Notes under the pieces: generated by a model
Databases searched by the model: none
Seen by the model: only the letters and a program-made list of their open reading frames with translations
Told to the model about the DNA's origin: nothing
In this document: piece by piece, positions 2,449-36,737 of the stretch
How positions within the stretch are numbered: the stretch's first letter is position 1
Layout: each line of letters begins with the position of its first letter
Translations under genes and position numbers: made by a program
Virus genome (UHGV): UHGV-0368393
From: a virus
DNA: 36,737 nucleotides
Direction: 5' to 3' (one strand)

Positions 2449-2916
2449 ATGGCAAAAGGTAAATATCAAGAGTGGCTAGAGCCGGAAGGCTTGCTGAAGA
2501 TAGAGGGATGGGCGAGAGATGGTCTGACGGACGAGCAGATTGCAGATAATATCGGGATTTCCAGAAGCACATTAAATAGCTGGAAAGACAAGTATTCGGA
2601 CATTTCGGACACCCTAAAAAGAGGAAAAGAGGTCGTTGATCGTCAAGTCGAGAATGCTTTGCTAAAACGTGCGCTTGGATATGAGTACACGGAAACGACC
2701 AGAGAATACATACCGGAACTCGATGAGATGAAAACTACGAAAAAGGTCACAAAGCAAGTAGCGCCGGACACTACAGCTCAGATATTCTGGCTCAAGAACC
2801 GGAAACCGGATAAATGGAGAGATAAGCAAGAATACGAGGATAGAACAGCAATTGAAAAGCTGGATGAAATCTTGAAAGGATTGCATGACAATGCAGCTAA
2901 GCAAAAAACAGAATGA
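2449..2916 (+). CDS. terS: Terminase small subunit
   Basis: An internal ATG at 2449 gives MAKGKYQEWL with an upstream GGTGAG. It carries an HTH (GLTDEQIADNIGISRSTLNSWK) and the conserved FWLKNRKPDKWRDK tail of Gram-positive phage small terminases. The 2329 track start would add an implausible hydrophobic leader. Confidence 0.75.
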   Translation: MAKGKYQEWLEPEGLLKIEGWARDGLTDEQIADNIGISRSTLNSWKDKYSDISDTLKRGKEVVDRQVENALLKRALGYEYTETTREYIPELDEMKTTKKVTKQVAPDTTAQIFWLKNRKPDKWRDKQEYEDRTAIEKLDEILKGLHDNAAKQKTE

Positions 2917-4123
2917 GTACATCATAAACGCAACACATAGATGGAATATCAAGTCTGGAGCGGTTCGCTCTGGAAAGTCTTTTGTAGATACTGCTTATAT
3001 TGTTCCGAAAAGAATCCGAGATAGAGCTGGACTCCCCGGATTAAATGTAATCATGGGAGTCTCTAAAGAATCTATCGAGAGAAACGTACTCCAACCGATG
3101 AGGGAAATCTATACCAGCGACCTGATCGGGAACATTAACAACCGGAATGTAGCCAGAGTATGCGGAGAGGATGTTTATTGTCTCGGAGCGGAAAAGGTCA
3201 GTCAAGTCGCAAAGATACAGGGAGCGTCCATCAAGTATTGTTACGGGGATGAGATTGCAAAGTGGAACAAAGAAGTCTTCCAGATGCTGAAATCACGTCT
3301 TGATAAGACGTATTCCTGTTTTGATGGAGCTTGCAACCCGGAGAATCCGACACATTGGCTAAAAGAATTTCTCGACAATAAAAAATTAGATATCTATTTG
3401 CAGAGATACACGATTTTCGACAATCCGTTTCTGGCTCCAGATTTCGTGGAGAAGCTCTGCATCGAATATGACGGTACCGTTTATTATGACCGGTTGATTC
3501 TTGGTCTATGGAAACGAGCAGAGGGAGCGATTTACCGCAAATTTGCAGACCATCCGAAAGATTTTGTCAAAGAGCCGACTGCATCCGATCTGACAGAGAT
3601 TGTCATTGGCGTGGACTTTGGTGGTAATAAGTCTGGTCATTCTTTCGTGGCAAGAGGGTATGACCGAGACAACAACGTGTATGGATTAAATAGTGTCAGA
3701 CACATGAACAAGGATTTTAAGGACGGAATTGATTCAAACATCCTGAATGATCTGCTTATCAAATTTGTGAACGAGGTGCAAGAAAAGTATGGAAAAGTCG
3801 ACTTTATCTATTGGGACAATGCAGAGACTACGCTCGGCCAGAGTATCCGAAACGCTATGCTCAAAGCTAATCCAGCCACGATTGTAAGACCGGCCAAGAA
3901 AATCAGAATAAAAGACCGAATTGAATGCGTCTTAAAGCTCATGGGGGCTGGGCGCTTTTTTATTACAAACGACTGCGAAACATTATCTACCGCACTGCAA
4001 GAAGCGGTGTGGGATGAGAAATCTATGAAAGATGATCGACTGGATGACGGTAGTAGTGATATTGATACACTGGATGCATTTGAGTACACGATAGAACGCG
4101 ACATTAAAATGCTGACAGAGTGA
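2885..4123 (+). CDS. terL: Terminase large subunit (PBSX-like family)
   Basis: 412 aa with Walker A GAVRSGKS near the N-terminus and a nuclease C-terminal half. It overlaps the terS 3' end. Confidence 0.85.
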   Translation: MTMQLSKKQNEYIINATHRWNIKSGAVRSGKSFVDTAYIVPKRIRDRAGLPGLNVIMGVSKESIERNVLQPMREIYTSDLIGNINNRNVARVCGEDVYCLGAEKVSQVAKIQGASIKYCYGDEIAKWNKEVFQMLKSRLDKTYSCFDGACNPENPTHWLKEFLDNKKLDIYLQRYTIFDNPFLAPDFVEKLCIEYDGTVYYDRLILGLWKRAEGAIYRKFADHPKDFVKEPTASDLTEIVIGVDFGGNKSGHSFVARGYDRDNNVYGLNSVRHMNKDFKDGIDSNILNDLLIKFVNEVQEKYGKVDFIYWDNAETTLGQSIRNAMLKANPATIVRPAKKIRIKDRIECVLKLMGAGRFFITNDCETLSTALQEAVWDEKSMKDDRLDDGSSDIDTLDAFEYTIERDIKMLTE

Positions 4124-29451: not shown

Positions 29452-29964
29452 ATGAAAAAATTTGAATTAACCAGCGAATTTGTAACTTTTTTAGGAAAGA
29501 CGCTCTTTAGAATCAAGGCTCTTGTGTCGTTTGGTGATGTAGCAGAGGGAGAATTGGGCGGATTTATAGAAAGGGAGAATAATCTTGACCAGTCCGGTGA
29601 CGCTTGGGTATACGGTGACGCTCAGGTATACGGTGACGCTCAGGTATACGGTAACGCTCAGGTATCCGGTGACGCTCGGGTATACGGTGACGCTCATGTA
29701 TACGGTAACGCTTGGGTATACGGTGACGCTTGGGTTCAAAACTGCCGTGATTATTCTGCTACAAGCTGCTTCGGATCGGAAAATAGGACGACAACATTTT
29801 TCCGCACGAAAGACGGCGGAATCAGCGTGAGATGTGGATGTTTTTACGGAACACTGAGGGAATTTAGAGAAAAGGTGAAAGAACGACACGGAGACAGTCG
29901 ACTGGCAAAGGAATATTTGATGCTGGCAGATTTGATGGAGTTTAGATTGTCTAAGGATGAGTAG
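29452..29964 (+). CDS. Hexapeptide-repeat (left-handed beta-helix-like) protein
   Basis: Seven tandem [AW/Q]VYG[DN]A hexapeptides encoded by 18-bp tandem DNA repeats (29602-29745). Cys-rich C-terminal region. Confidence 0.55.
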   Translation: MKKFELTSEFVTFLGKTLFRIKALVSFGDVAEGELGGFIERENNLDQSGDAWVYGDAQVYGDAQVYGNAQVSGDARVYGDAHVYGNAWVYGDAWVQNCRDYSATSCFGSENRTTTFFRTKDGGISVRCGCFYGTLREFREKVKERHGDSRLAKEYLMLADLMEFRLSKDE

Positions 29965-30612: not shown

Positions 30613-31340
30613 ATATGAATATATATCAAAAAATGAGTGCAATTACAGCAGAAATCACAGCTGTTGCGAAAAATCTGAATGTAGGTTGGGGGCAAAATTC
30701 TTACAAGGCCGTAGGCGAAGCAGATGTTCTGGCCGCTGTAAAACCAATCGAAGAAAAACACGGTGTTTACAGTTATCCTGTCAACCGACATATTATGGAC
30801 ACATCCGTTTTAACTTCAGTCAATTCAAAGGGCAACGAAGTTAGACAGTTATTTATGAGAATCGAAACTACATATAGATTCGTTAATGCTGAAATGCCAG
30901 AAGAGTACATTGACATCAAAACGTATGGTGATGGAGTAGATTCACAGGATAAGGCACCGGGGAAAGCGATGACATATGCGGATAAATACGCATTGTTGAA
31001 AGCTTATAAGATTATCACTGGTGATGATCCAGATCAGGAATGCAGCAAAGAACTGAAAGGAAAAGCAGCCAAACCTGCAAAATCATGTAAATCAGAAGCG
31101 ACAGTAAGGCAATTAGAATCAAAAGAGTCCGGCGAGCAGTCAAAAAACACGAGTAATGAGCTATTAAGCAGCGCAGAACGCTCTGCTATTGAGAGTCGAT
31201 GTAAGGAAGATGGGGTTGATGCAGATAAGTTATTATCTTTGTACAGCCTTAGCTCATTCGAAGGAATGAAATATAAACATTACGATAATATTTTGAAAAA
31301 CTGGGAAAAAGTAAAAGAAAAATGCGGAGGTGCAAAATAA
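30609..31340 (+). CDS. ERF-family single-strand annealing recombinase
   Basis: N-terminal IYQKM..I..EI..VAK...YKAV.E.DVL.AVKP...HG pattern of the ERF superfamily, plus a low-complexity C-terminus. The likely start is the second ATG at 30615. Confidence 0.55.
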   Translation: MNMNIYQKMSAITAEITAVAKNLNVGWGQNSYKAVGEADVLAAVKPIEEKHGVYSYPVNRHIMDTSVLTSVNSKGNEVRQLFMRIETTYRFVNAEMPEEYIDIKTYGDGVDSQDKAPGKAMTYADKYALLKAYKIITGDDPDQECSKELKGKAAKPAKSCKSEATVRQLESKESGEQSKNTSNELLSSAERSAIESRCKEDGVDADKLLSLYSLSSFEGMKYKHYDNILKNWEKVKEKCGGAK

Positions 31341-31753
31341 TGAACAGCGTAAATTTAACAGGTAGATTAACCAGAGATCCAGAAATCAGATATACAGATG
31401 CAGGGCTTTCGATTGCAAGATTTTCCATTGCTGTAGACAGGAGATTTTATAAGGACGGTGAGCAATCAGCGGATTTTATAAACATCGTATCATTCGGAAA
31501 AACAGCAGAATTCATTGAAAAGTGGTTTAAGAAAGGGACGAAAATTGAAGTATCCGGAAGAATTCAGACAGGATCATATGCAAACAATGACGGGGTAAAG
31601 GTTTATACAACAGACGTTGTTGCGGAGCAAGTCGGTTTCGCAGAGAGTAAGAACTCGCAAAATTCAGGAGCTAACAGAGTATCAGAATCACATGATGATG
31701 GGTTCGTAAATATTCCGGACGGAGTAATCGACGAAGAAATGCCGTTTAATTAG
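31340..31753 (+). CDS. ssb: Single-stranded DNA-binding protein
   Basis: OB-fold SSB N-terminus (NSVNLTGRLTRDPEIRYT...ARFSIAV) and an acidic C-terminal tail ending DEEMPFN. GGAGGTG RBS. Confidence 0.85.
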   Translation: MNSVNLTGRLTRDPEIRYTDAGLSIARFSIAVDRRFYKDGEQSADFINIVSFGKTAEFIEKWFKKGTKIEVSGRIQTGSYANNDGVKVYTTDVVAEQVGFAESKNSQNSGANRVSESHDDGFVNIPDGVIDEEMPFN

Positions 31754-31755
31754 GA

Positions 31756-32268
31756 GTGATTTTATTGGTTATACAAATAGACAGTAGGGAAAAATCGAGA
31801 GCGATTAAAAAAATCATAAAAACATTTGATGAGAAAGGCGTGAAGCATCCAGTATCTAAGTTAATGGTCGGAGATTATATGAACTATGACAACCCACGTC
31901 TTGTCGTTGACAGAAAACAGAATTTAACAGAGGTGTGCTGCAATGTTTGTCAAGACCACGAAAGATTCAGAAGAGAACTGGTGAAAGCAAATGAAAATGG
32001 AATTAAAATCATATTTCTTGTTGAGCACGGAAAAGATATTGAAACTTTGGAAGATGTTATCTGGTGGGAAAATCCGAGGGGTGCGAAGCGGCAACGGAAC
32101 AAAGAAACAGGGAAATGGGAAACTGTTAAGACGAAAGCAATGACCGGAAGAACTCTGTACAAAGTCCTATGTACCATCCAGAGGAAGTATGAATGCGAAT
32201 TCTTGTTTTGCGAGAAAAACGATACCGGAAAGAAGATTATTGAGTTATTGGACGAAAGACATGAATAA
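31756..32268 (+). CDS. ERCC4/Mus81-type nuclease (Holliday-junction resolvase-like)
   Basis: IDSREK...GDY...VVDRKQ..E motif order is typical of ERCC4-fold nucleases. Likely TTG start at 31765. Confidence 0.45.
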   Translation: MILLVIQIDSREKSRAIKKIIKTFDEKGVKHPVSKLMVGDYMNYDNPRLVVDRKQNLTEVCCNVCQDHERFRRELVKANENGIKIIFLVEHGKDIETLEDVIWWENPRGAKRQRNKETGKWETVKTKAMTGRTLYKVLCTIQRKYECEFLFCEKNDTGKKIIELLDERHE

Positions 32269-32752
32269 AGAAGAGATTAAACATTCACACAGCATGAGAG
32301 AGATTGTGGAAAGATATGGGTTCCATGTAAATCGGGCGGGGTTTATTCACTGCCCGTTCCACAAGGGAGACAAGGGAGCATCATTAAAAATCTACCCAGA
32401 TAGCTTCCATTGTTTCGGATGCGGAACAAATGGAGATATCTTTACATTCGTACAGCTAATTGACCACGTTGATTTCAAAGAAGCGTTCCAGAGTCTTGGT
32501 GGAACTTATGAAAAGCCGACATTCCAGTCGAAATTGGCGATATACAGGAGCCGGAAGAAGGCAGAGCAGAGAAAGCGAGAAGAGGAAAAGCTCCGGAGAA
32601 AAAGGGAGCTGAACAATATTCTGATTGATGTGTACCGCGATTATATGAATAAGTCGGAACCATTCAGTGACGTCTGGTGCGATTGCTGCAATGCGTTGCA
32701 GTACCAGTTATATTTGCATGAAATATTAAACAGAGAAGAGGTGAGGAAATGA
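32261..32752 (+). CDS. CHC2 zinc-finger protein (DnaG-type primase zinc-binding domain)
   Basis: CPFHKGDKGASLKIY...FHCFGCGTNGDIFTFV is the classic zf-CHC2 motif. Confidence 0.7.
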   Translation: MNKEEIKHSHSMREIVERYGFHVNRAGFIHCPFHKGDKGASLKIYPDSFHCFGCGTNGDIFTFVQLIDHVDFKEAFQSLGGTYEKPTFQSKLAIYRSRKKAEQRKREEEKLRRKRELNNILIDVYRDYMNKSEPFSDVWCDCCNALQYQLYLHEILNREEVRK

Positions 32753-34617
32753 GGGAAATGAACGAATTCGATGCAGACAGCATATTGGATGATGAAGTTT
32801 TCATCGAATTATTTGAAATGGAAGATCCGATTCTCCGGTCAAAAACAAAAGTGCAGCTCATCAGAAGAGCGAAGCAGCTGGGAGTCAAGTCGGATTTTGA
32901 AGAGATTTTGAAAGGATACAATCAGGCTGACCGAGAAATGAAGAGACAGGAACGGGAAAACAGAACTGTTTGCACAGTAGATAACTATACGAATTTCACA
33001 GGACCTCACGATCGTATGTATTGCGGCGCCTGGATTGCGGATGATCGCGGCGTGTTCGCACAGAATTCCGGAAGGGTTGATGAAGTGGCTTGCTATCACC
33101 CAATCCTGCCAGTAGAGCGGCTGCGAAACTTAGAGACCGGGGAAGAGCAAATAAAACTGTCGTACAGGCGAAATAACCAGTGGCACGATATTGTGGTTCC
33201 AAAAACGATGATCACATCGGCGAATAAGATCGTGGCATTATCCGGAAGAGGGATTGCAGTTACGTCAGAAAATGCAAAATTGCTAGTCAAGTATCTGGCT
33301 GACGTAGAAAATGGAAATGATGATTACATAGATGTGCAGTATTCCACTAGTAAACTTGGGTGGATCAAGGATCAGTTTATCCCCTATGATACAGACATCA
33401 TTTTTGACGGGGATAATCGATTTAAGCAGACCTTTGAAAGCGTGTCGGAGCATGGAAGTTTCGATGTGTGGTTGAATCACGTTCGAGAACTGAGGGCAGC
33501 TGGAAGAATGGAGGTAAAATTCTTGTTGGCTGCATCATTCGCAAGTGTGCTGGTTCATATTCTGGGTGGACTCCCTTTCTTCGTGGATCTGTGGGGTGAA
33601 ACCGAGGGTGGAAAGACAGTCTCTCTCATGGTAGCCACATCTGTGTGGGCAAATCCAGACGAAAGCAGATATATTGGAGACTTTAAAACAACGGACGTTG
33701 CACTGGAAGCGAAAGCGGATATGTTGAATCATCTTCCGATGTTTCTGGACGATACGAGCAAAACATCCGCAAGAATCAGGGATAACTTCGAGGGAATTGT
33801 TTATGATCTGTGTTCCGGAAAAGGAAAGAGCCGGTCAAATAAAGACCTCGGAATCAATCGAGAGAATCGGTGGCGGAATGTAATGATCTGTAATGGTGAG
33901 AGACCGCTTAGTAGCTATGTCAGTCAGGGCGGTGCAATCAACAGAATTCTGGAGGTTGAGTGTGGCGAGAAAATCTATCAGGATCCGCAGAAGACAGCGG
34001 AAACGGTAAAACGGAATTACGGTCACGCAGGTAGGAAATTTGTGGAGATCATCAAAGAAATGGGAGAAGATGAAATTCGTTCTATCCAGAAAGAGTTTCA
34101 GAAGGAGTTATTTAACACGGACAAGATGCAGAAGCAGAGTATTTCACTTTCTATCGTTCTGACAGCCGATAAAATAGCCACAGATCTGATTTTTAAGGAT
34201 GGGCAGTATATTTCAATGGACGAAGCGAAACAGGTGCTTATAAACCGAAATGAGCTGTCTGACAATGAGCGATGCTACCAATATATCCTTGATAAAATCG
34301 CAATGAACAGCCAGAGATTTGATGTGTCTTCAAATTGTGAAAAATGGGGAATTATTGAAGACGGATACGCAGTGATTTACGGACAGGCATTTAAGGAAAT
34401 CTGTGAATCTGGGAAATTCTCAAAAAAGTCCTTCTTGTCATGGGCTGCAAAGAAAGGCGTTATCCAGCAGGACAGCAAGGGAAACCCAACAAAGCCGAAA
34501 AAGATAGACGGAAGAGCGGCGAGATGCGTGTTTTTGCAACTTGAATCGAAAGGAAATACGGATAATGATGGGTTTGAAAGCATCGATGAAACACAAGAAA
34601 AGCTACCTTTTAGTTAA
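32749..34617 (+). CDS. DUF927-type replicative helicase/primase C-terminal ATPase
   Basis: Walker A GETEGGKT and Walker B MFLDD within a DUF927-like core. 622 aa. Confidence 0.65.
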   Translation: MREMNEFDADSILDDEVFIELFEMEDPILRSKTKVQLIRRAKQLGVKSDFEEILKGYNQADREMKRQERENRTVCTVDNYTNFTGPHDRMYCGAWIADDRGVFAQNSGRVDEVACYHPILPVERLRNLETGEEQIKLSYRRNNQWHDIVVPKTMITSANKIVALSGRGIAVTSENAKLLVKYLADVENGNDDYIDVQYSTSKLGWIKDQFIPYDTDIIFDGDNRFKQTFESVSEHGSFDVWLNHVRELRAAGRMEVKFLLAASFASVLVHILGGLPFFVDLWGETEGGKTVSLMVATSVWANPDESRYIGDFKTTDVALEAKADMLNHLPMFLDDTSKTSARIRDNFEGIVYDLCSGKGKSRSNKDLGINRENRWRNVMICNGERPLSSYVSQGGAINRILEVECGEKIYQDPQKTAETVKRNYGHAGRKFVEIIKEMGEDEIRSIQKEFQKELFNTDKMQKQSISLSIVLTADKIATDLIFKDGQYISMDEAKQVLINRNELSDNERCYQYILDKIAMNSQRFDVSSNCEKWGIIEDGYAVIYGQAFKEICESGKFSKKSFLSWAAKKGVIQQDSKGNPTKPKKIDGRAARCVFLQLESKGNTDNDGFESIDETQEKLPFS

Positions 34618-34630
34618 GAGGAGGAAATAC

Positions 34631-34807
34631 AATGTCAAAAGTTGTGAGGATTAGTAATGAAAACTATGATTTTATTGAATGCATGGCGTTCAGGAATGGA
34701 GTTCCGATAAATGCAATATTAAATGAGGTGCTGGAAAAATTCAAAAATTCGTCGCCGAATGATGTGATTTCAGTGGAATATCGGGGCAGAAAAGTTGCGA
34801 TAAGGTA
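34631..34807 (+). CDS. 58-aa ribbon-helix-helix-like DNA-binding protein
   Basis: Strong AAGAGGAGG RBS. Predicted beta-strand (KVVRISNENYDFIE) followed by two helices. Its stop overlaps the first GTAACAA iteron. Too short for the track. Confidence 0.4.
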
Positions 34808-35005
34808 ACAAGTAACAAAAGTAACAACAGGAAATCGCGCTATATATACGGAATAAAAATGTGAGAAATTCAAAAATATGAAGTCCCTATATAGGGTAAA
34901 AATCATTGTTACTTTTGTTACCAACCTCAAAAACCTGTCAACCATGCTGGTTTGATAGGGTAACAGACTTTTGTTACCGGAAGAAAAATTTTGTTGCTTT
35001 GTTAC
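34804..35005. repeat. Iteron cluster (about 8 copies of GTAACAA/TTGTTAC in both orientations) flanking a 12-bp palindrome CCCTATATAGGG: candidate replication origin
   Basis: GTAACAA direct copies at 34804, 34811 and 34820. Inverted copies near 34907-34923, 34972 and 34990-35003. Palindrome at 34885-34896 in an AT-rich core. Confidence 0.55.
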
Positions 35006-35019
35006 GAAGAGGGTAGTGT

Positions 35020-35223
35020 ATGCACGAAAAAATAACAGATATCCAGAATTTGTTCTGGAAAGCGTATAAAAATTATAAAGGTACCGGCTCAATGAGTCAA
35101 TACAATGCAGATGTCGATGGGATTATTGAGAAGTACAGGGATGATCATGCTATGTTGAATTTCTGCAAAAACTTGGCAATATCATGGGCGCCGGTTATTA
35201 ACAAAATGAAAGAAGATGATTAA
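35020..35223 (+). CDS. Hypothetical protein
   Basis: ORF with a GAGGGTAG RBS. Confidence 0.4.
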   Translation: MHEKITDIQNLFWKAYKNYKGTGSMSQYNADVDGIIEKYRDDHAMLNFCKNLAISWAPVINKMKEDD

Positions 35224-35559
35224 ATGCAAGAAAGAAAAAGGGACTTATACGAGCCGTATTTGGACGAAATAAGGCAAATGCTTGAAGATGGGTGCGTAAT
35301 TACCCATATACACAAGGAAATTGCGAAAAAGAGCGGAATTGACGCAAATGTTAAGACGATGAAGCGTTTTATGAGAGAAAAAGGCTTAATCCAGGAGTCT
35401 GAATGCGAAAAGACCGAAATCAATAAATTGATAAAGGATAAGTTTAAGGGAATCAGTGAATACATGGATTTCTACGAACGTTGGGTGCGGACCAGTTGCC
35501 GGCTCAACAGGGCGATGTCGAATCCAAACCGGATATTAATGCGGAGGTATTTACAGTAG
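35224..35559 (+). CDS. Hypothetical protein with a possible HTH
   Basis: ORF only. KEIAKKSGIDANVKTMKRFMREKGL HTH-like segment. Confidence 0.35.
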   Translation: MQERKRDLYEPYLDEIRQMLEDGCVITHIHKEIAKKSGIDANVKTMKRFMREKGLIQESECEKTEINKLIKDKFKGISEYMDFYERWVRTSCRLNRAMSNPNRILMRRYLQ

Positions 35560-35714
35560 CTATGAAAAAAAAAGAAAGAGAAACCAAAGAAAAATGAAGT
35601 ACATATCTGCTCTTCCTGCGGACGGGAAATTATCGGAGATTTTGAGTATGTAAAGACAAAGAGAAGGACGGAATTGTATTTTTGTAAAGATATGAGGTGT
35701 AGGAGGAATGACTA

Positions 35715-36104
35715 ATGCCAAAAACAGAAGAAACATGGATGGATGGGATCACTACAGAAATGATGGAGTATATATGCGACGACCTGTGCAGGCATCCAGA
35801 TCATTTAAGTGGTGAAGCACTGGAAGATAAATGCGCAGAATGCAAGATGGGACGGTTTGTGTGCGATATTTTGAACCAGTATGACAAGGTGAATGATTTT
35901 GCAAACAGCCAGTGCGAGAAGTTGATGTGTGAGATGCATGAGCTGAAAGAACGAGATACGGCAAAGAAGCCGAATATAATGGACTACATACTTGGTGACA
36001 TTAACTTTAAATGCCCTACGTGCAAAAGTGAATATATTTGTGAAAAAGGATATGAACATTTTTATTGCCCGAATTGCGGTCAGAAAATTAAATGGAGTGA
36101 GTAA
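35715..36104 (+). CDS. Cys-rich zinc-ribbon protein
   Basis: TAGGAGGA RBS. Multiple CxxC pairs including a C-terminal KCPTCK...YCPNCG ribbon. Confidence 0.5.
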   Translation: MPKTEETWMDGITTEMMEYICDDLCRHPDHLSGEALEDKCAECKMGRFVCDILNQYDKVNDFANSQCEKLMCEMHELKERDTAKKPNIMDYILGDINFKCPTCKSEYICEKGYEHFYCPNCGQKIKWSE

Positions 36105-36105
36105 C

Positions 36106-36327
36106 ATGGAAGAATTAAAGAAATGCCCGTTTTGTGGTGGAGAAGCAAGAATAAAAATGGAAAGAAAAAATAATGTTGGTTGGACTATTTGGTGTGAATG
36201 CAAAAAATGTTATGCAAAAGCAGAAGGATATTGTCCTAGTATGCAAAATGCAGACAACGCACTAAATAGTATTAATACTTGCAAAATAAATGCAATCGAA
36301 GCATGGAATAGGAGATGGAATAAATGA
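36106..36327 (+). CDS. Lar-family restriction alleviation (anti-restriction) protein
   Basis: LKKCPFCGG...WTIWCECKKC...AIEAWNRRW matches the Lar_restr_allev pattern. GGAGTGAG RBS. Confidence 0.6.
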   Translation: MEELKKCPFCGGEARIKMERKNNVGWTIWCECKKCYAKAEGYCPSMQNADNALNSINTCKINAIEAWNRRWNK

Positions 36328-36647
36328 AATACAAAATAGGTCAAATCCTAACATCAAATTGTGATATAGAAGTAGAGAAGATGTTTGGAGAAAAAGTAAT
36401 TATTCCAAAAGGGAATAAAATAATTATTGGAGCTGACGAATTTGCACATCATTTAAAAGATGGAATGATTCAACCTTTACAGAAAGATACTATTGTCGAA
36501 GAATATGATACAGAGGGAATAGCAGAATACTTAATGAAAAAACTGTCTGAAGTATTTCCATTAGAAGAAATGCTTGAAGATTATGGTATTGAAAAAGAAG
36601 AATTTGAAGAAGAAATTGGTTTTTTCTTAGATGATATAGGATTTTAG
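36324..36647 (+). CDS. Acidic hypothetical protein
   Basis: ORF with an ATGA overlap to the upstream gene. Confidence 0.4.
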   Translation: MKYKIGQILTSNCDIEVEKMFGEKVIIPKGNKIIIGADEFAHHLKDGMIQPLQKDTIVEEYDTEGIAEYLMKKLSEVFPLEEMLEDYGIEKEEFEEEIGFFLDDIGF

Positions 36648-36659
36648 GAGAGTGGAATA

Positions 36660-36737
36660 ATGGAGAACGTATTAGAGAAGATTTTGGAAGAGATTGAAGA
36701 TCATGCGATAGAGTTTAAATCATTCGGAATGTGTGAT
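36660..36737 (+). CDS. Hypothetical protein, 3'-truncated by the window edge
   Basis: GGAGAGTGG RBS. The ORF runs off the end of the window. Confidence 0.3.
   Translation, partial: MENVLEKILEEIEDHAIEFKSFGMCD

What the first reader, a model, noticed from the sequence alone, without database searches (positions are those of the whole stretch)
34631..35019. RHH-like mini-protein plus bidirectional GTAACAA iteron field and CCCTATATAGGG palindrome: candidate origin of replication
An unannotated 58-aa protein with a strong RBS lies immediately downstream of the DUF927 helicase gene. Its stop is embedded in the first of three direct GTAACAA heptamers. Further copies follow in inverted orientation, around an AT-rich core with a perfect 12-bp palindrome. 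Iterons near a replication gene are the usual hallmark of a phage or plasmid origin. The small RHH protein could be the origin-binding or copy-control factor.
Basis: partly seen in the sequence, partly recalled or inferred. Interest (0 to 1): 0.6.

Follow-up and report, generated by a model that had tools for sequence, protein, structure and literature searches.

The report
Phage replication origin with helicase-read iterons
The repeat-filled gap after the helicase gene of this Ruminococcus gnavus phage is very probably its replication origin, of the kind already proven in staphylococcal pathogenicity islands, and the repeats are most likely read by the helicase itself rather than by the small neighbouring protein.

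Summary
A 58-aa ORF (34632-34808) follows the DUF927 helicase gene, and its TAA stop lies inside the first of three direct GTAACAA heptamers. Seven exact and two degenerate copies fill 34805-35005. Left and right sets point in opposite directions around a 78-bp AT-rich spacer that holds CCCTATATAGGG.

The origin reading is supported. The helicase is a homologue of the SaPI Rep and SCCmec Cch self-loading helicases. Published work places the SaPI origin directly 3' of rep, with 6-12 iterons flanking an AT-rich centre. All 15 independent helicase homologues examined carry a field with this layout at that position, with lineage-specific repeats. One of them is a real SaPI. Across relatives, iteron columns vary in 8% of positions and spacers in 68%.

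The part about the small protein is not supported as stated. It is probably Arc-like and is always wedged between helicase and origin. But Roseburia phage Jekyll has the same iterons at the same spacing with no such gene. The protein's predicted DNA-reading strand also stays nearly constant while the iterons change.

Verdict: an ordinary but well-defined new member of a known origin type. It carries a lineage-specific accessory gene of unknown role.

The parts
32189..32752 (+). CHC2 zinc-ribbon protein ('primase' in related records), part of the replication module
   Evidence: Pfam Zn_ribbon_DnaG E 4e-14 and no catalytic domain found. The same domain is fused to the helicase in THSA-485A and FP_Epona.
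32749..34617 (+). DUF927 / MCM-like helicase with C-terminal HTH_56 (Cch winged-helix) domain; the proposed initiator and iteron reader
   Evidence: Pfam DUF927 E 2.6e-40 and HTH_56 E 5e-19. PDB 8tch 'Pathogenicity island protein' E 3.5e-31 and 5dgk Cch E 5.6e-9. tblastn to the SaPI PT1028/SaPINY940 Rep E 2e-29.
34632..34808 (+). 58-aa Arc/RHH-like protein, a lineage-specific insertion between helicase gene and origin
   Evidence: Real gene: column variability by codon position is 31/17/63% across relatives. The AF2 model has an extended N-terminus, two helices and a C-terminal beta-hairpin, pLDDT 78. RHH proteins dominate non-significant Foldseek hits. Identity to P22 Arc is 32%, pairwise E 2e-4. 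There is no Pfam hit. Every family member with context follows a DUF927 helicase.
34805..34827 (+). Left iteron set: three direct GTAACAA (34805, 34812, 34821; spacing 7 and 9 bp); the first contains the RHH stop codon
   Evidence: Invariant in relatives whose RHH protein is 71-78% identical. Jekyll has the same 7/9 spacing.
34828..34905 (.). AT-rich spacer, the candidate unwinding region, with a TATATATA box at 34841-48
   Evidence: GC 0.31, core 0.25. The least stable 41-bp stretch starts at 34840, z +2.7, top 0.3% of the genome. The spacer sequence diverges but stays AT-rich in relatives.
34885..34896 (.). CCCTATATAGGG palindrome at the right edge of the spacer
   Evidence: Unique in the window. 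A CCTATA(TA)GG-like core recurs at the same place in L016, L018, L022 and L023. The last two lack the RHH gene.
34906..34921 (-). Right iteron set: two inverted GTAACAA (34906, 34915), forming a perfect 16-bp inverted repeat with 34812-27
   Evidence: Invariant in all 13 distinct relatives.
34922..34959 (.). Second spacer, containing ATGCTGGTTT (34944-53), a one-mismatch copy of a conserved origin box AAACCCGCAT in inverted orientation
   Evidence: The exact 10-mer sits in the equivalent origin spacer (read directly in L022, L023, L024, L025 and L034; within the field in the rest) of 15 loci, including THSA-485A (twice) and AC844P1. A hairpin here is not supported.
34960..35005 (.). Distal iteron cluster: GTAACAg (+, 34960) facing TTGTTAC (-, 34971), then TTGTTgC (34991) and TTGTTAC (34999)
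   Evidence: The degenerate copies are exact GTAACAA in L016, L018 or L020. THSA-485A and L033 have a facing pair at the equivalent place.
35020..35223 (+). First gene after the origin (67 aa, unknown function)
   Evidence: phrog_23374 E 2.2e-17. It marks the right-hand border of the non-coding field.

Best explanation
The non-coding field 34805-35005 is the phage's origin of replication, of the type defined in staphylococcal pathogenicity islands (SaPIs).

**Proposed mechanism.**
1. The DUF927/MCM-like helicase encoded just upstream (32749-34617) acts as its own initiator.
2. Its C-terminal winged-helix (HTH_56) domain reads the GTAACAA heptamers.
3. Helicase hexamers assemble on the oppositely oriented left (34805-27) and right (34906-21) iteron sets.
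4. The AT-rich 78-bp spacer between them, least stable around 34840-80, is melted.
5. The helicases load there, and priming follows with the CHC2 zinc-ribbon protein, SSB and host enzymes.

The distal iterons (34960-35005) probably add binding sites.

**The 58-aa protein.** It is a lineage-specific accessory gene inserted between rep and ori. Its role is unresolved, and it is probably not the iteron reader.

**Shown here:**
- the repeats, their enrichment and their selective conservation;
- helicase homology to SaPI Rep and Cch;
- a field of the same layout, with its own repeat, after every helicase homologue examined, with or without the RHH gene.

**Inferred:**
- binding of the helicase C-terminal domain to the iterons;
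- melting and loading;
- actual origin activity.
For: **1. Helicase identity.**
- Pfam DUF927 plus HTH_56.
- PDB 8tch SaPI protein E 3.5e-31 and Cch 5dgk E 5.6e-9.
- tblastn hit to the Rep of PT1028, which is SaPINY940.

**2. Published definition of the SaPI origin.**
- It has 6-12 short iterons immediately downstream of rep.
- It has an AT-rich centre, with at least two iterons on each side in opposite directions.
- The iterons are read by the Rep C-terminal winged helix (PMC9371898; PMC7581432).
- The window shows 9 iterons: 3 on the left, a 78-bp AT-rich centre, 2 inverted on the right, and a distal cluster.

**3. Comparative test.** All 15 independent helicase homologues examined have a 160-365-nt non-coding gap with iterons after the gene. 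The core layout (direct iterons after the stop, an AT-rich tract, then inverted iterons) recurs, with extra sets in the most distant members. The repeats are lineage-specific:
- GTAACA(A), GTTACA(A) and GTAACC in the closer relatives;
- AGGTAACCGA in THSA-485A, 10 copies;
- TAGGTGAAAC in FP_Epona, 10 copies;
- AGTTCCC in the SaPI, 9 copies.

**4. Purifying selection on the heptamers.** 8% of iteron columns vary, against 68% of spacer columns and 63% of third codon positions. This is over 13 distinct relatives whose RHH protein is down to 71% identical.

**5. The iterons do not depend on the RHH gene.**
- Jekyll (helicase 62% identical) has GTAACA iterons at the same 7/9-bp spacing and no RHH gene.
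- L022 and L023 also lack it.

**6. Helicase C-terminal domains group by iteron type**.

**7. No other initiator.** No other initiator gene is annotated in the early region (integrase to helicase) of the 96%-identical phage phiRg507T2_2, and none was found among the window's replication-module ORFs.
Against: - There is no experimental evidence for this phage or any close relative. The paper describing the related R. gnavus phages does not mention an origin.
- The AT-rich spacer is only moderately AT-rich. It ranks about the top 6% of 78-nt windows by GC, and about the 10th least stable region genome-wide.
- Grouping of C-terminal domains with iteron type cannot be separated from shared ancestry.
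- The field is separated from the helicase gene by the RHH gene, unlike in SaPIs.
- The RHH family's strict linkage to this position leaves open that it also binds within the field.
Confidence: 0.8

Rival explanations
1. The heptamers are operators for the 58-aa RHH protein. RHH dimers bind the direct and inverted GTAACAA repeats, as the omega repressor binds heptads. They would repress or time a promoter for the downstream gene block, or directly license the origin as the main origin-binding protein.
For: - The protein is Arc-like.
- RHH proteins are known to bind short tandem or inverted repeats, including 7-bp heptads (own knowledge of omega, CopG and Arc).
- The first two heptamers are contiguous at 7-bp spacing.
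- Every member of this small protein family sits immediately before such a field.
Against: - Jekyll has the same iterons and spacing without any RHH homologue, with tblastn at E up to 1.
- Six helicase homologues have a field of the same core layout and no small gene in between.
- The predicted DNA-contacting strand MSKV(V/I)(R/K)IS hardly changes while iterons switch between GTAACAA, GTTACAA and GTAACC.
- No sigma-70-like + strand promoter lies in the field in the window, L016 or L018.
Confidence: 0.12
2. The field is a packaging (pac) or partition (centromere-like) site made of protein-binding repeats, not an origin.
For: - Repeat arrays bound by small DNA-binding proteins also mark pac sites and plasmid centromeres. 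RHH proteins such as ParG and omega serve as centromere binders (own knowledge).
- The linear RG-TP1 record starts about 750 bp upstream of the RHH gene.
Against: - The field travels with the helicase gene across elements as different as gut, thermophile and Faecalibacterium phages and a SaPI, where origin function is published.
- It lies about 4 kb from the candidate large-terminase ORF at 2885-4123, assigned by position only.
- The phage has an integrase, and no ParA gene is annotated in the early region or around the helicase in the 96%-identical relative.
Confidence: 0.03
3. The repeats are a non-functional relic or a chance cluster in an AT-rich intergenic region.
For: Short A/T-rich heptamers recur easily in AT-rich DNA. 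Six other GTAACAA copies are scattered through the window at about the chance rate.
Against: - 7 copies in 201 bp compares with about 0.03 expected there (from 5.4 in the whole window).
- Shuffled genomes never exceed 4 copies per 200 nt.
- Heptamers are invariant while the spacers between them diverge.
- All copies changed in concert to GTTACAA in a sister lineage with the layout preserved.
Confidence: 0.02

Closest known systems
SaPI replication origin with Rep self-loading helicase (SaPIbov1, SaPI1; Ubeda 2007 and 2012 as summarised in PMC9371898 and PMC7581432)
   Same: - Homologous DUF927 helicase (PDB 8tch E 3.5e-31).
- The origin is 3' of the helicase gene.
- 9 short iterons, within the SaPI range of 6-12.
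- AT-rich centre with oppositely oriented iterons on each side.
- Lineage-specific iteron sequence.
- PT1028/SaPINY940 shows three direct iterons after the stop, an AT-rich tract and inverted iterons, plus an extra left-hand set the window lacks.
   Different: - Host and element type: a temperate siphophage of a gut clostridial bacterium, not a staphylococcal satellite.
- A heptamer GTAACAA rather than a penta- or hexamer.
- A 58-aa RHH-like gene sits between rep and ori.
- The partner protein is a bare CHC2 zinc ribbon, where SaPIs encode a separate primase.
- No experiments exist.
SCCmec Cch / Cch2 helicases and the putative SCCmec origin (PMC7581432)
   Same: - Cch carries DUF927 and the HTH_56 domain that gives the Pfam family its name.
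- For Cch2, the C-terminal domain binds direct repeats just downstream of the gene.
   Different: - Cch2 belongs to a different helicase family and its site has only three AAGTG iterons.
- No origin had been identified for SCC elements before that study, which proposed one only for the Cch2-type operons.
- The window has a fuller, bipartite field.
pRN1 replication operon orf56/orf904 of Sulfolobus (PMC4234260, abstract)
   Same: A small transcriptional repressor is encoded beside the replication protein, and essential sequence lies downstream of the replication operon.
   Different: - In pRN1 the repressor gene lies upstream of rep and represses the operon promoter.
- Here the small gene lies downstream of rep and abuts the origin.
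- There is no detectable sequence relationship.
Omega repressor / ParG heptad arrays (RHH proteins binding 7-bp repeats; own knowledge)
   Same: A small RHH-type protein next to 7-bp repeats in direct and inverted orientation.
   Different: - Omega sites are long uninterrupted heptad runs at promoters.
- Here the repeats are split around an AT-rich spacer.
- They occur identically without the RHH gene and track the helicase.

Membership tests
SaPI-type origin (Rep/Cch self-loading helicase origin) | Cognate initiator is a DUF927/MCM-like helicase with a C-terminal winged-helix DNA-binding domain | tested here: met
   Pfam DUF927 E 2.6e-40 and HTH_56 E 5e-19. PDB 8tch E 3.5e-31 and 5dgk E 5.6e-9.
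SaPI-type origin (Rep/Cch self-loading helicase origin) | Origin lies immediately downstream of the helicase (rep) gene | tested here: met
   The field starts 188 nt after the helicase stop, and only the 177-nt RHH gene intervenes. In RHH-less relatives the first iteron is 2-25 nt after the stop.
SaPI-type origin (Rep/Cch self-loading helicase origin) | Six to twelve short iterons | tested here: met
   7 exact and 2 degenerate GTAACAA copies in 201 bp, strongly enriched.
SaPI-type origin (Rep/Cch self-loading helicase origin) | AT-rich region near the centre with at least two iterons on each side pointing in opposite directions | tested here: met
   3 (+) copies, then a 78-bp spacer of GC 0.31 with a stability minimum at 34840-80, then 2 (-) copies. 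The AT-richness is moderate.
SaPI-type origin (Rep/Cch self-loading helicase origin) | Iteron sequence is specific to the cognate Rep lineage | tested here: met
   Six or more iteron types across 15 helicase lineages, and C-terminal domains group with iteron type. This is confounded with phylogeny.
SaPI-type origin (Rep/Cch self-loading helicase origin) | Rep binds and melts the origin; the origin supports replication with rep in trans | not testable with these tools
   Needs EMSA or footprinting and a replication assay.
Ribbon-helix-helix (Arc/MetJ/CopG) superfamily, for the 58-aa protein | N-terminal beta-strand followed by two helices | tested here: inconclusive
   The AF2 model (pLDDT 78) has an extended N-terminus at 1-8 and helices at 9-22 and 26-39. 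Foldseek gave no hit below E 0.7, but AvtR, VapB, CdbA, Arc, CopG and TacA lead the list. Identity to P22 Arc is 32%, pairwise E 2e-4. Pfam gave no hit.
Ribbon-helix-helix (Arc/MetJ/CopG) superfamily, for the 58-aa protein | Dimer whose paired strands bind repeated DNA subsites | not testable with these tools
   Only single-chain prediction is available. Comparative data argue against the iterons as its site.
Iteron origin with a separate initiator (lambda O, plasmid RepA/Rep_3, DnaD-like replisome organiser) | A dedicated non-helicase initiator gene next to or containing the iterons | tested here: not met
   The replication-module ORFs scanned are ERF, SSB, ERCC4 nuclease, a zinc ribbon and the DUF927 helicase. 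No such initiator is annotated in the early region of the 96%-identical phiRg507T2_2.
RHH centromere / omega-type heptad operator | Repeats depend on and co-occur with the RHH protein, with a ParA partner or a target promoter | tested here: not met
   The same field occurs without the RHH gene. No ParA is annotated in the early region or around the helicase of the relative. No promoter-like site lies on the + strand.

The most novel reading that the evidence does not exclude
The 58-aa Arc-like protein may be a dedicated regulator of a self-loading helicase origin. It would gate helicase loading or set copy number, for example during lysogeny or early after induction. It could do so by binding a conserved element of the origin that is not the variable part of the iterons, or by binding the helicase C-terminal domain. 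That would be a regulatory layer not described for SaPI Rep or Cch systems. Its family is tiny and is found only wedged between a DUF927 helicase gene and its iteron field.
Probability: 0.2. Interest if true: 0.55.

Novelty: new member of a known kind. Interest (0 to 1): 0.35.

Why it matters
- It assigns a concrete, testable origin and initiator to a group of Ruminococcus/Mediterraneibacter gnavus temperate phages. The paper describing the related phages does not mention an origin.
- It suggests that the SaPI Rep/Cch mode of initiation, a self-loading helicase with downstream iterons, extends beyond staphylococcal satellites. The same module appears in phages of gut Clostridia, Faecalibacterium and Thermoanaerobacterium.
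- The set of related helicases with GTAACAA, GTTACAA, GTAACC and more distant iterons is a natural series. It could be used to work out how the winged-helix domain reads its iteron, and to build orthogonal replicons for hard-to-engineer gut anaerobes.
- The tightly linked RHH gene is a small open question.

Tried and rejected
- **GC and cumulative skew.** It rises with gene orientation, falls only over the - strand lysogeny genes at 21.5-24.5 kb, and shows no signal at 34.8 kb. It is not informative for origin placement here.
- **Promoter and terminator scan.** No + strand promoter lies in the field. An 11/12 - strand site at 35100-35072 is not conserved in L016 or L018, so it was treated as chance. 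No terminator follows the RHH gene.
- **Rfam scan of 34400-35400 at E up to 1.** Nothing found.
- **Hairpin in the second spacer (AAACC...GGTTT).** DNA folds of seven homologous stretches gave z-scores from -1.7 to +0.6. The structure was rejected. The sequence box AAACCCGCAT is conserved instead.
- **Family assignment of the RHH protein.** Pfam gave no hit, PHROGs only phrog_8688 at E 0.088, and the PDB sequence search only an anti-CRISPR N-terminus at E 0.053. Foldseek gave nothing significant.
- **Search for more RHH loci.** The genome-contig scan found none. The second viral-contig scan found only the same 13 close relatives.
- **Deciding the iteron reader by covariation.** Helicase C-terminal domain, RHH protein and iteron type all follow the same phylogeny. 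Only the RHH-less loci discriminate between them.
- **15-nt repeat GAAAAATTCAAAAAT at 34734 / 34863.** By eye it is not conserved in L016 or L018, so it was treated as chance.
- **Original SaPI origin papers (PMC1964853, PMC3804134).** They are not held, so their content is cited through PMC9371898 and PMC7581432.

Full report
**What the window is.** It is a temperate siphophage of Ruminococcus (Mediterraneibacter) gnavus.
- Bases 32700-36737 are 96% identical to phage phiRg507T2_2 (MT980836), and related to RG-TP1 (PQ571303).
- The finding lies at the end of the replication module: ERF recombinase (30609), SSB (31322), ERCC4 nuclease (31756), a CHC2 zinc-ribbon protein (32189), and a 622-aa helicase (32749-34617).
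- The helicase carries Pfam DUF927 (E 2.6e-40) and a C-terminal HTH_56 'Cch helix-turn-helix' domain (E 5e-19).

- A 58-aa ORF (34632-34808) with a GAGGAGG ribosome-binding site starts 14 nt after the helicase stop.
- Its TAA stop lies inside the first of three direct GTAACAA heptamers (34805, 34812, 34821).
- Four exact inverted copies follow (34906, 34915, 34971, 34999), plus two one-mismatch copies (34960 +, 34991 -).
- Seven of the window's 13 copies lie in 201 bp. The expectation is 5.4 for the whole window, and none of 100 shuffles reached 13.
- No shuffled genome had more than 4 copies of any heptamer in 200 nt, against 6 here.
- Heptamers 2-3 and the first inverted pair form a perfect 16-bp inverted repeat 78 nt apart.
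- The 78-nt spacer has GC 0.31 against 0.42 for the window. It holds a helix-stability minimum at 34840-34880, in the top 0.3% of the genome.
- CCCTATATAGGG (34885-96) is unique in the window.
- The gene is not unannotated in public records. Its 93-97% identical counterparts are called 'DNA binding regulatory protein' and 'Arc-like repressor'.

**The heptamers are under selection.** I compared 13 distinct related sequences. They include loci L016 and L018-L020, whose small protein is 78% and 71% identical.

| Column class | Variable columns |
|---|---|
| Iteron | 8% |
| Spacer | 68% |
| Third codon positions of the small gene | 63% |

The same analysis shows the small ORF evolving as a protein, with 31/17/63% variable columns at codon positions 1/2/3. 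The two degenerate copies in the window are exact GTAACAA in relatives.

**What the upstream gene implies.**
- The helicase matches solved structures: 8tch 'Pathogenicity island protein' at E 3.5e-31 and 5dgk, the SCCmec Cch helicase, at E 5.6e-9.
- By tblastn it matches the Rep of 'phage' PT1028 at E 2e-29. PT1028 is the island SaPINY940 (PMC8989297).
- Two papers summarise the SaPI system (PMC9371898; PMC7581432):
  - Rep is both helicase and initiator.
  - Its C-terminal winged helix recognises short iterons.
  - Six to twelve iterons lie immediately downstream of rep.
  - An AT-rich region sits near the centre.
  - At least two iterons lie on each side, pointing in opposite directions.
  - Cch (DUF927) is related to SaPIbov1 Rep.
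- The window's field fits each of these points.

**The comparative test.** I fetched the DNA after the helicase gene in every phage-collection homologue, and in metagenomic loci reached through the small protein. All 15 independent loci have a 160-365-nt non-coding gap after the helicase gene, or after the small gene where present. Each gap is filled with a lineage-specific repeat. The core layout recurs: direct copies just after the stop, an AT-rich tract, then inverted copies. Most loci also have a facing pair beyond. The most distant members (THSA-485A, FP_Epona, PT1028) carry an extra iteron set on the left.

| Locus or phage | Helicase identity | Iteron |
|---|---|---|
| Window, L016, L018 | - | GTAACAA |
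| Roseburia phage Jekyll | 62% | GTAACA |
| L029, L034, L036 | - | GTTACA(A) |
| L022, L023, L030, L032, Anaerostipes AC844P1 | - | GTAACC or GGTAACC |
| THSA-485A | 31% | AGGTAACCGA, 10 copies |
| FP_Epona | 29% | TAGGTGAAAC, 10 copies |
| PT1028 (SaPI) | 25.5% | AGTTCCC, 9 copies |

- L029 reads GGTTACAAGTTACAAAAGTTACA where the window reads GGTAACAAGTAACAAAAGTAACA. The layout and spacing are the same, with one base changed in every copy. That concerted change is what a co-evolving reader protein would produce.
- Other origin elements are shared too:
  - a TATATA box after the left set;
  - a CCTATA(TA)GG-like palindrome before the right set;
  - the 10-mer AAACCCGCAT in the second spacer. 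It is exact in 15 loci, in either orientation, and has one mismatch in the window at 34944-53.
- The field is therefore homologous to a proven origin type, not merely similar to one.

**Which protein reads the iterons.** The small protein is probably Arc-like.
- The AlphaFold model (pLDDT 78) has an extended N-terminus, two helices and an extra C-terminal beta-hairpin.
- Foldseek gave no significant hit, but its list is led by ribbon-helix-helix proteins.
- It aligns to P22 Arc at 32% identity, pairwise E 2e-4, using an Arc sequence taken from memory.
- Pfam finds nothing.
- The family is tiny, about a dozen clusters among 1.84 billion representatives. Every member with known context sits 9-19 nt after a DUF927 plus HTH_56 helicase, with its stop abutting the first iteron. 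It is clearly tied to this module.

Three observations argue that it is not the iteron reader.
- Jekyll has the same GTAACA iterons at the same 7- and 9-bp spacing, but no such gene and no tblastn match at E up to 1.
- L022, L023, AC844P1, THSA-485A, FP_Epona and the SaPI have fields of the same core layout and no small gene.
- The N-terminal strand, which contacts bases in this fold, stays MSKV(V/I)(R/K)IS while the iterons switch among three types.

The helicase C-terminal domains do group by iteron type. So does everything else, because phylogeny is shared, so that point is only consistent and not decisive. The experimentally established SaPI precedent tips the balance to the helicase.

**Rivals.**
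- An RHH operator field gets about 0.12.
- A pac or partition site gets about 0.03. The field follows the helicase across unrelated phages. No ParA is annotated in the early region or around the helicase of the 96%-identical relative, and the phage has an integrase.
- Chance or relic is excluded by the conservation pattern.
- No second initiator gene was seen in the scanned or annotated early region.
- No promoter, terminator, Rfam family or supported hairpin was found in the field.
- GC skew is uninformative because it follows gene orientation.

**Verdict.** This is a SaPI/Cch-type origin served by a self-loading DUF927 helicase, so it is a new member of a known kind. The proposal that the small RHH protein is the origin binder is not supported. 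Its role is open, and it is the only mildly novel element.

- Confidence in the origin assignment is 0.8, pending any experiment.
- Interest is 0.35. A specialist would not be surprised. Still, the locus gives a defined origin for R. gnavus phages and a natural series of helicase and iteron specificities.

Noticed in passing
window 29595-29735 (inside ORF 29452-29964): An 18-nt tandem repeat of 7.6 copies (TRF) lies in an ORF with a Pfam YdcK beta-solenoid repeat. It is the only other place in the window with heptamer density equal to the origin field. It looks like a coding repeat, not an origin.
   Followed up: partly
window 34590-34614 (helicase C-terminus); SSB 31322-31753: The helicase ends in an acidic tail plus LPFS. 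All 13 homologues aligned end in acidic residues plus (L/V/P)PF or VF. This resembles the SSB C-terminal tip, and the phage's own SSB ends DEEMPFN. It might be a docking peptide for host replication proteins.
   Followed up: no
window 32189-32752: The gene annotated 'DNA primase' in relatives shows only a CHC2 zinc ribbon in Pfam and no catalytic primase domain. The same ribbon is fused to the N-terminus of the helicase in THSA-485A and FP_Epona. Where priming activity resides is unclear.
   Followed up: partly
window 34944-34953; L022, L023, L024, L025 (x2), L034, L036 and close relatives: The 10-mer AAACCCGCAT (or its complement) is conserved in or near the spacer after the inverted iteron pair in 15 loci, across helicases down to 31% identity. 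The window has a one-base variant, ATGCTGGTTT. Its binding partner is unknown, and a hairpin is not supported.
   Followed up: partly
window 35100-35072, - strand: A near-consensus sigma-70-like promoter, TTGACT-17-TATAAT (11/12), lies inside ORF 35020-35223 and points leftward into the origin. No equivalent site exists in L016 or L018, so it is probably chance.
   Followed up: yes
58-aa protein (34632-34808) versus PDB 9wa8: The N-terminal 39 residues weakly resemble the N-terminus of a 123-aa solved 'Anti-CRISPR protein' (E 0.053). This is probably a shared ribbon-helix-helix-type module.
   Followed up: no
window 36106-36327: A small zinc-ribbon protein matches Lar-like restriction alleviation PHROGs (phrog_599, E 7e-12). 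It is annotated the same way in phiRg507T2_2.
   Followed up: no
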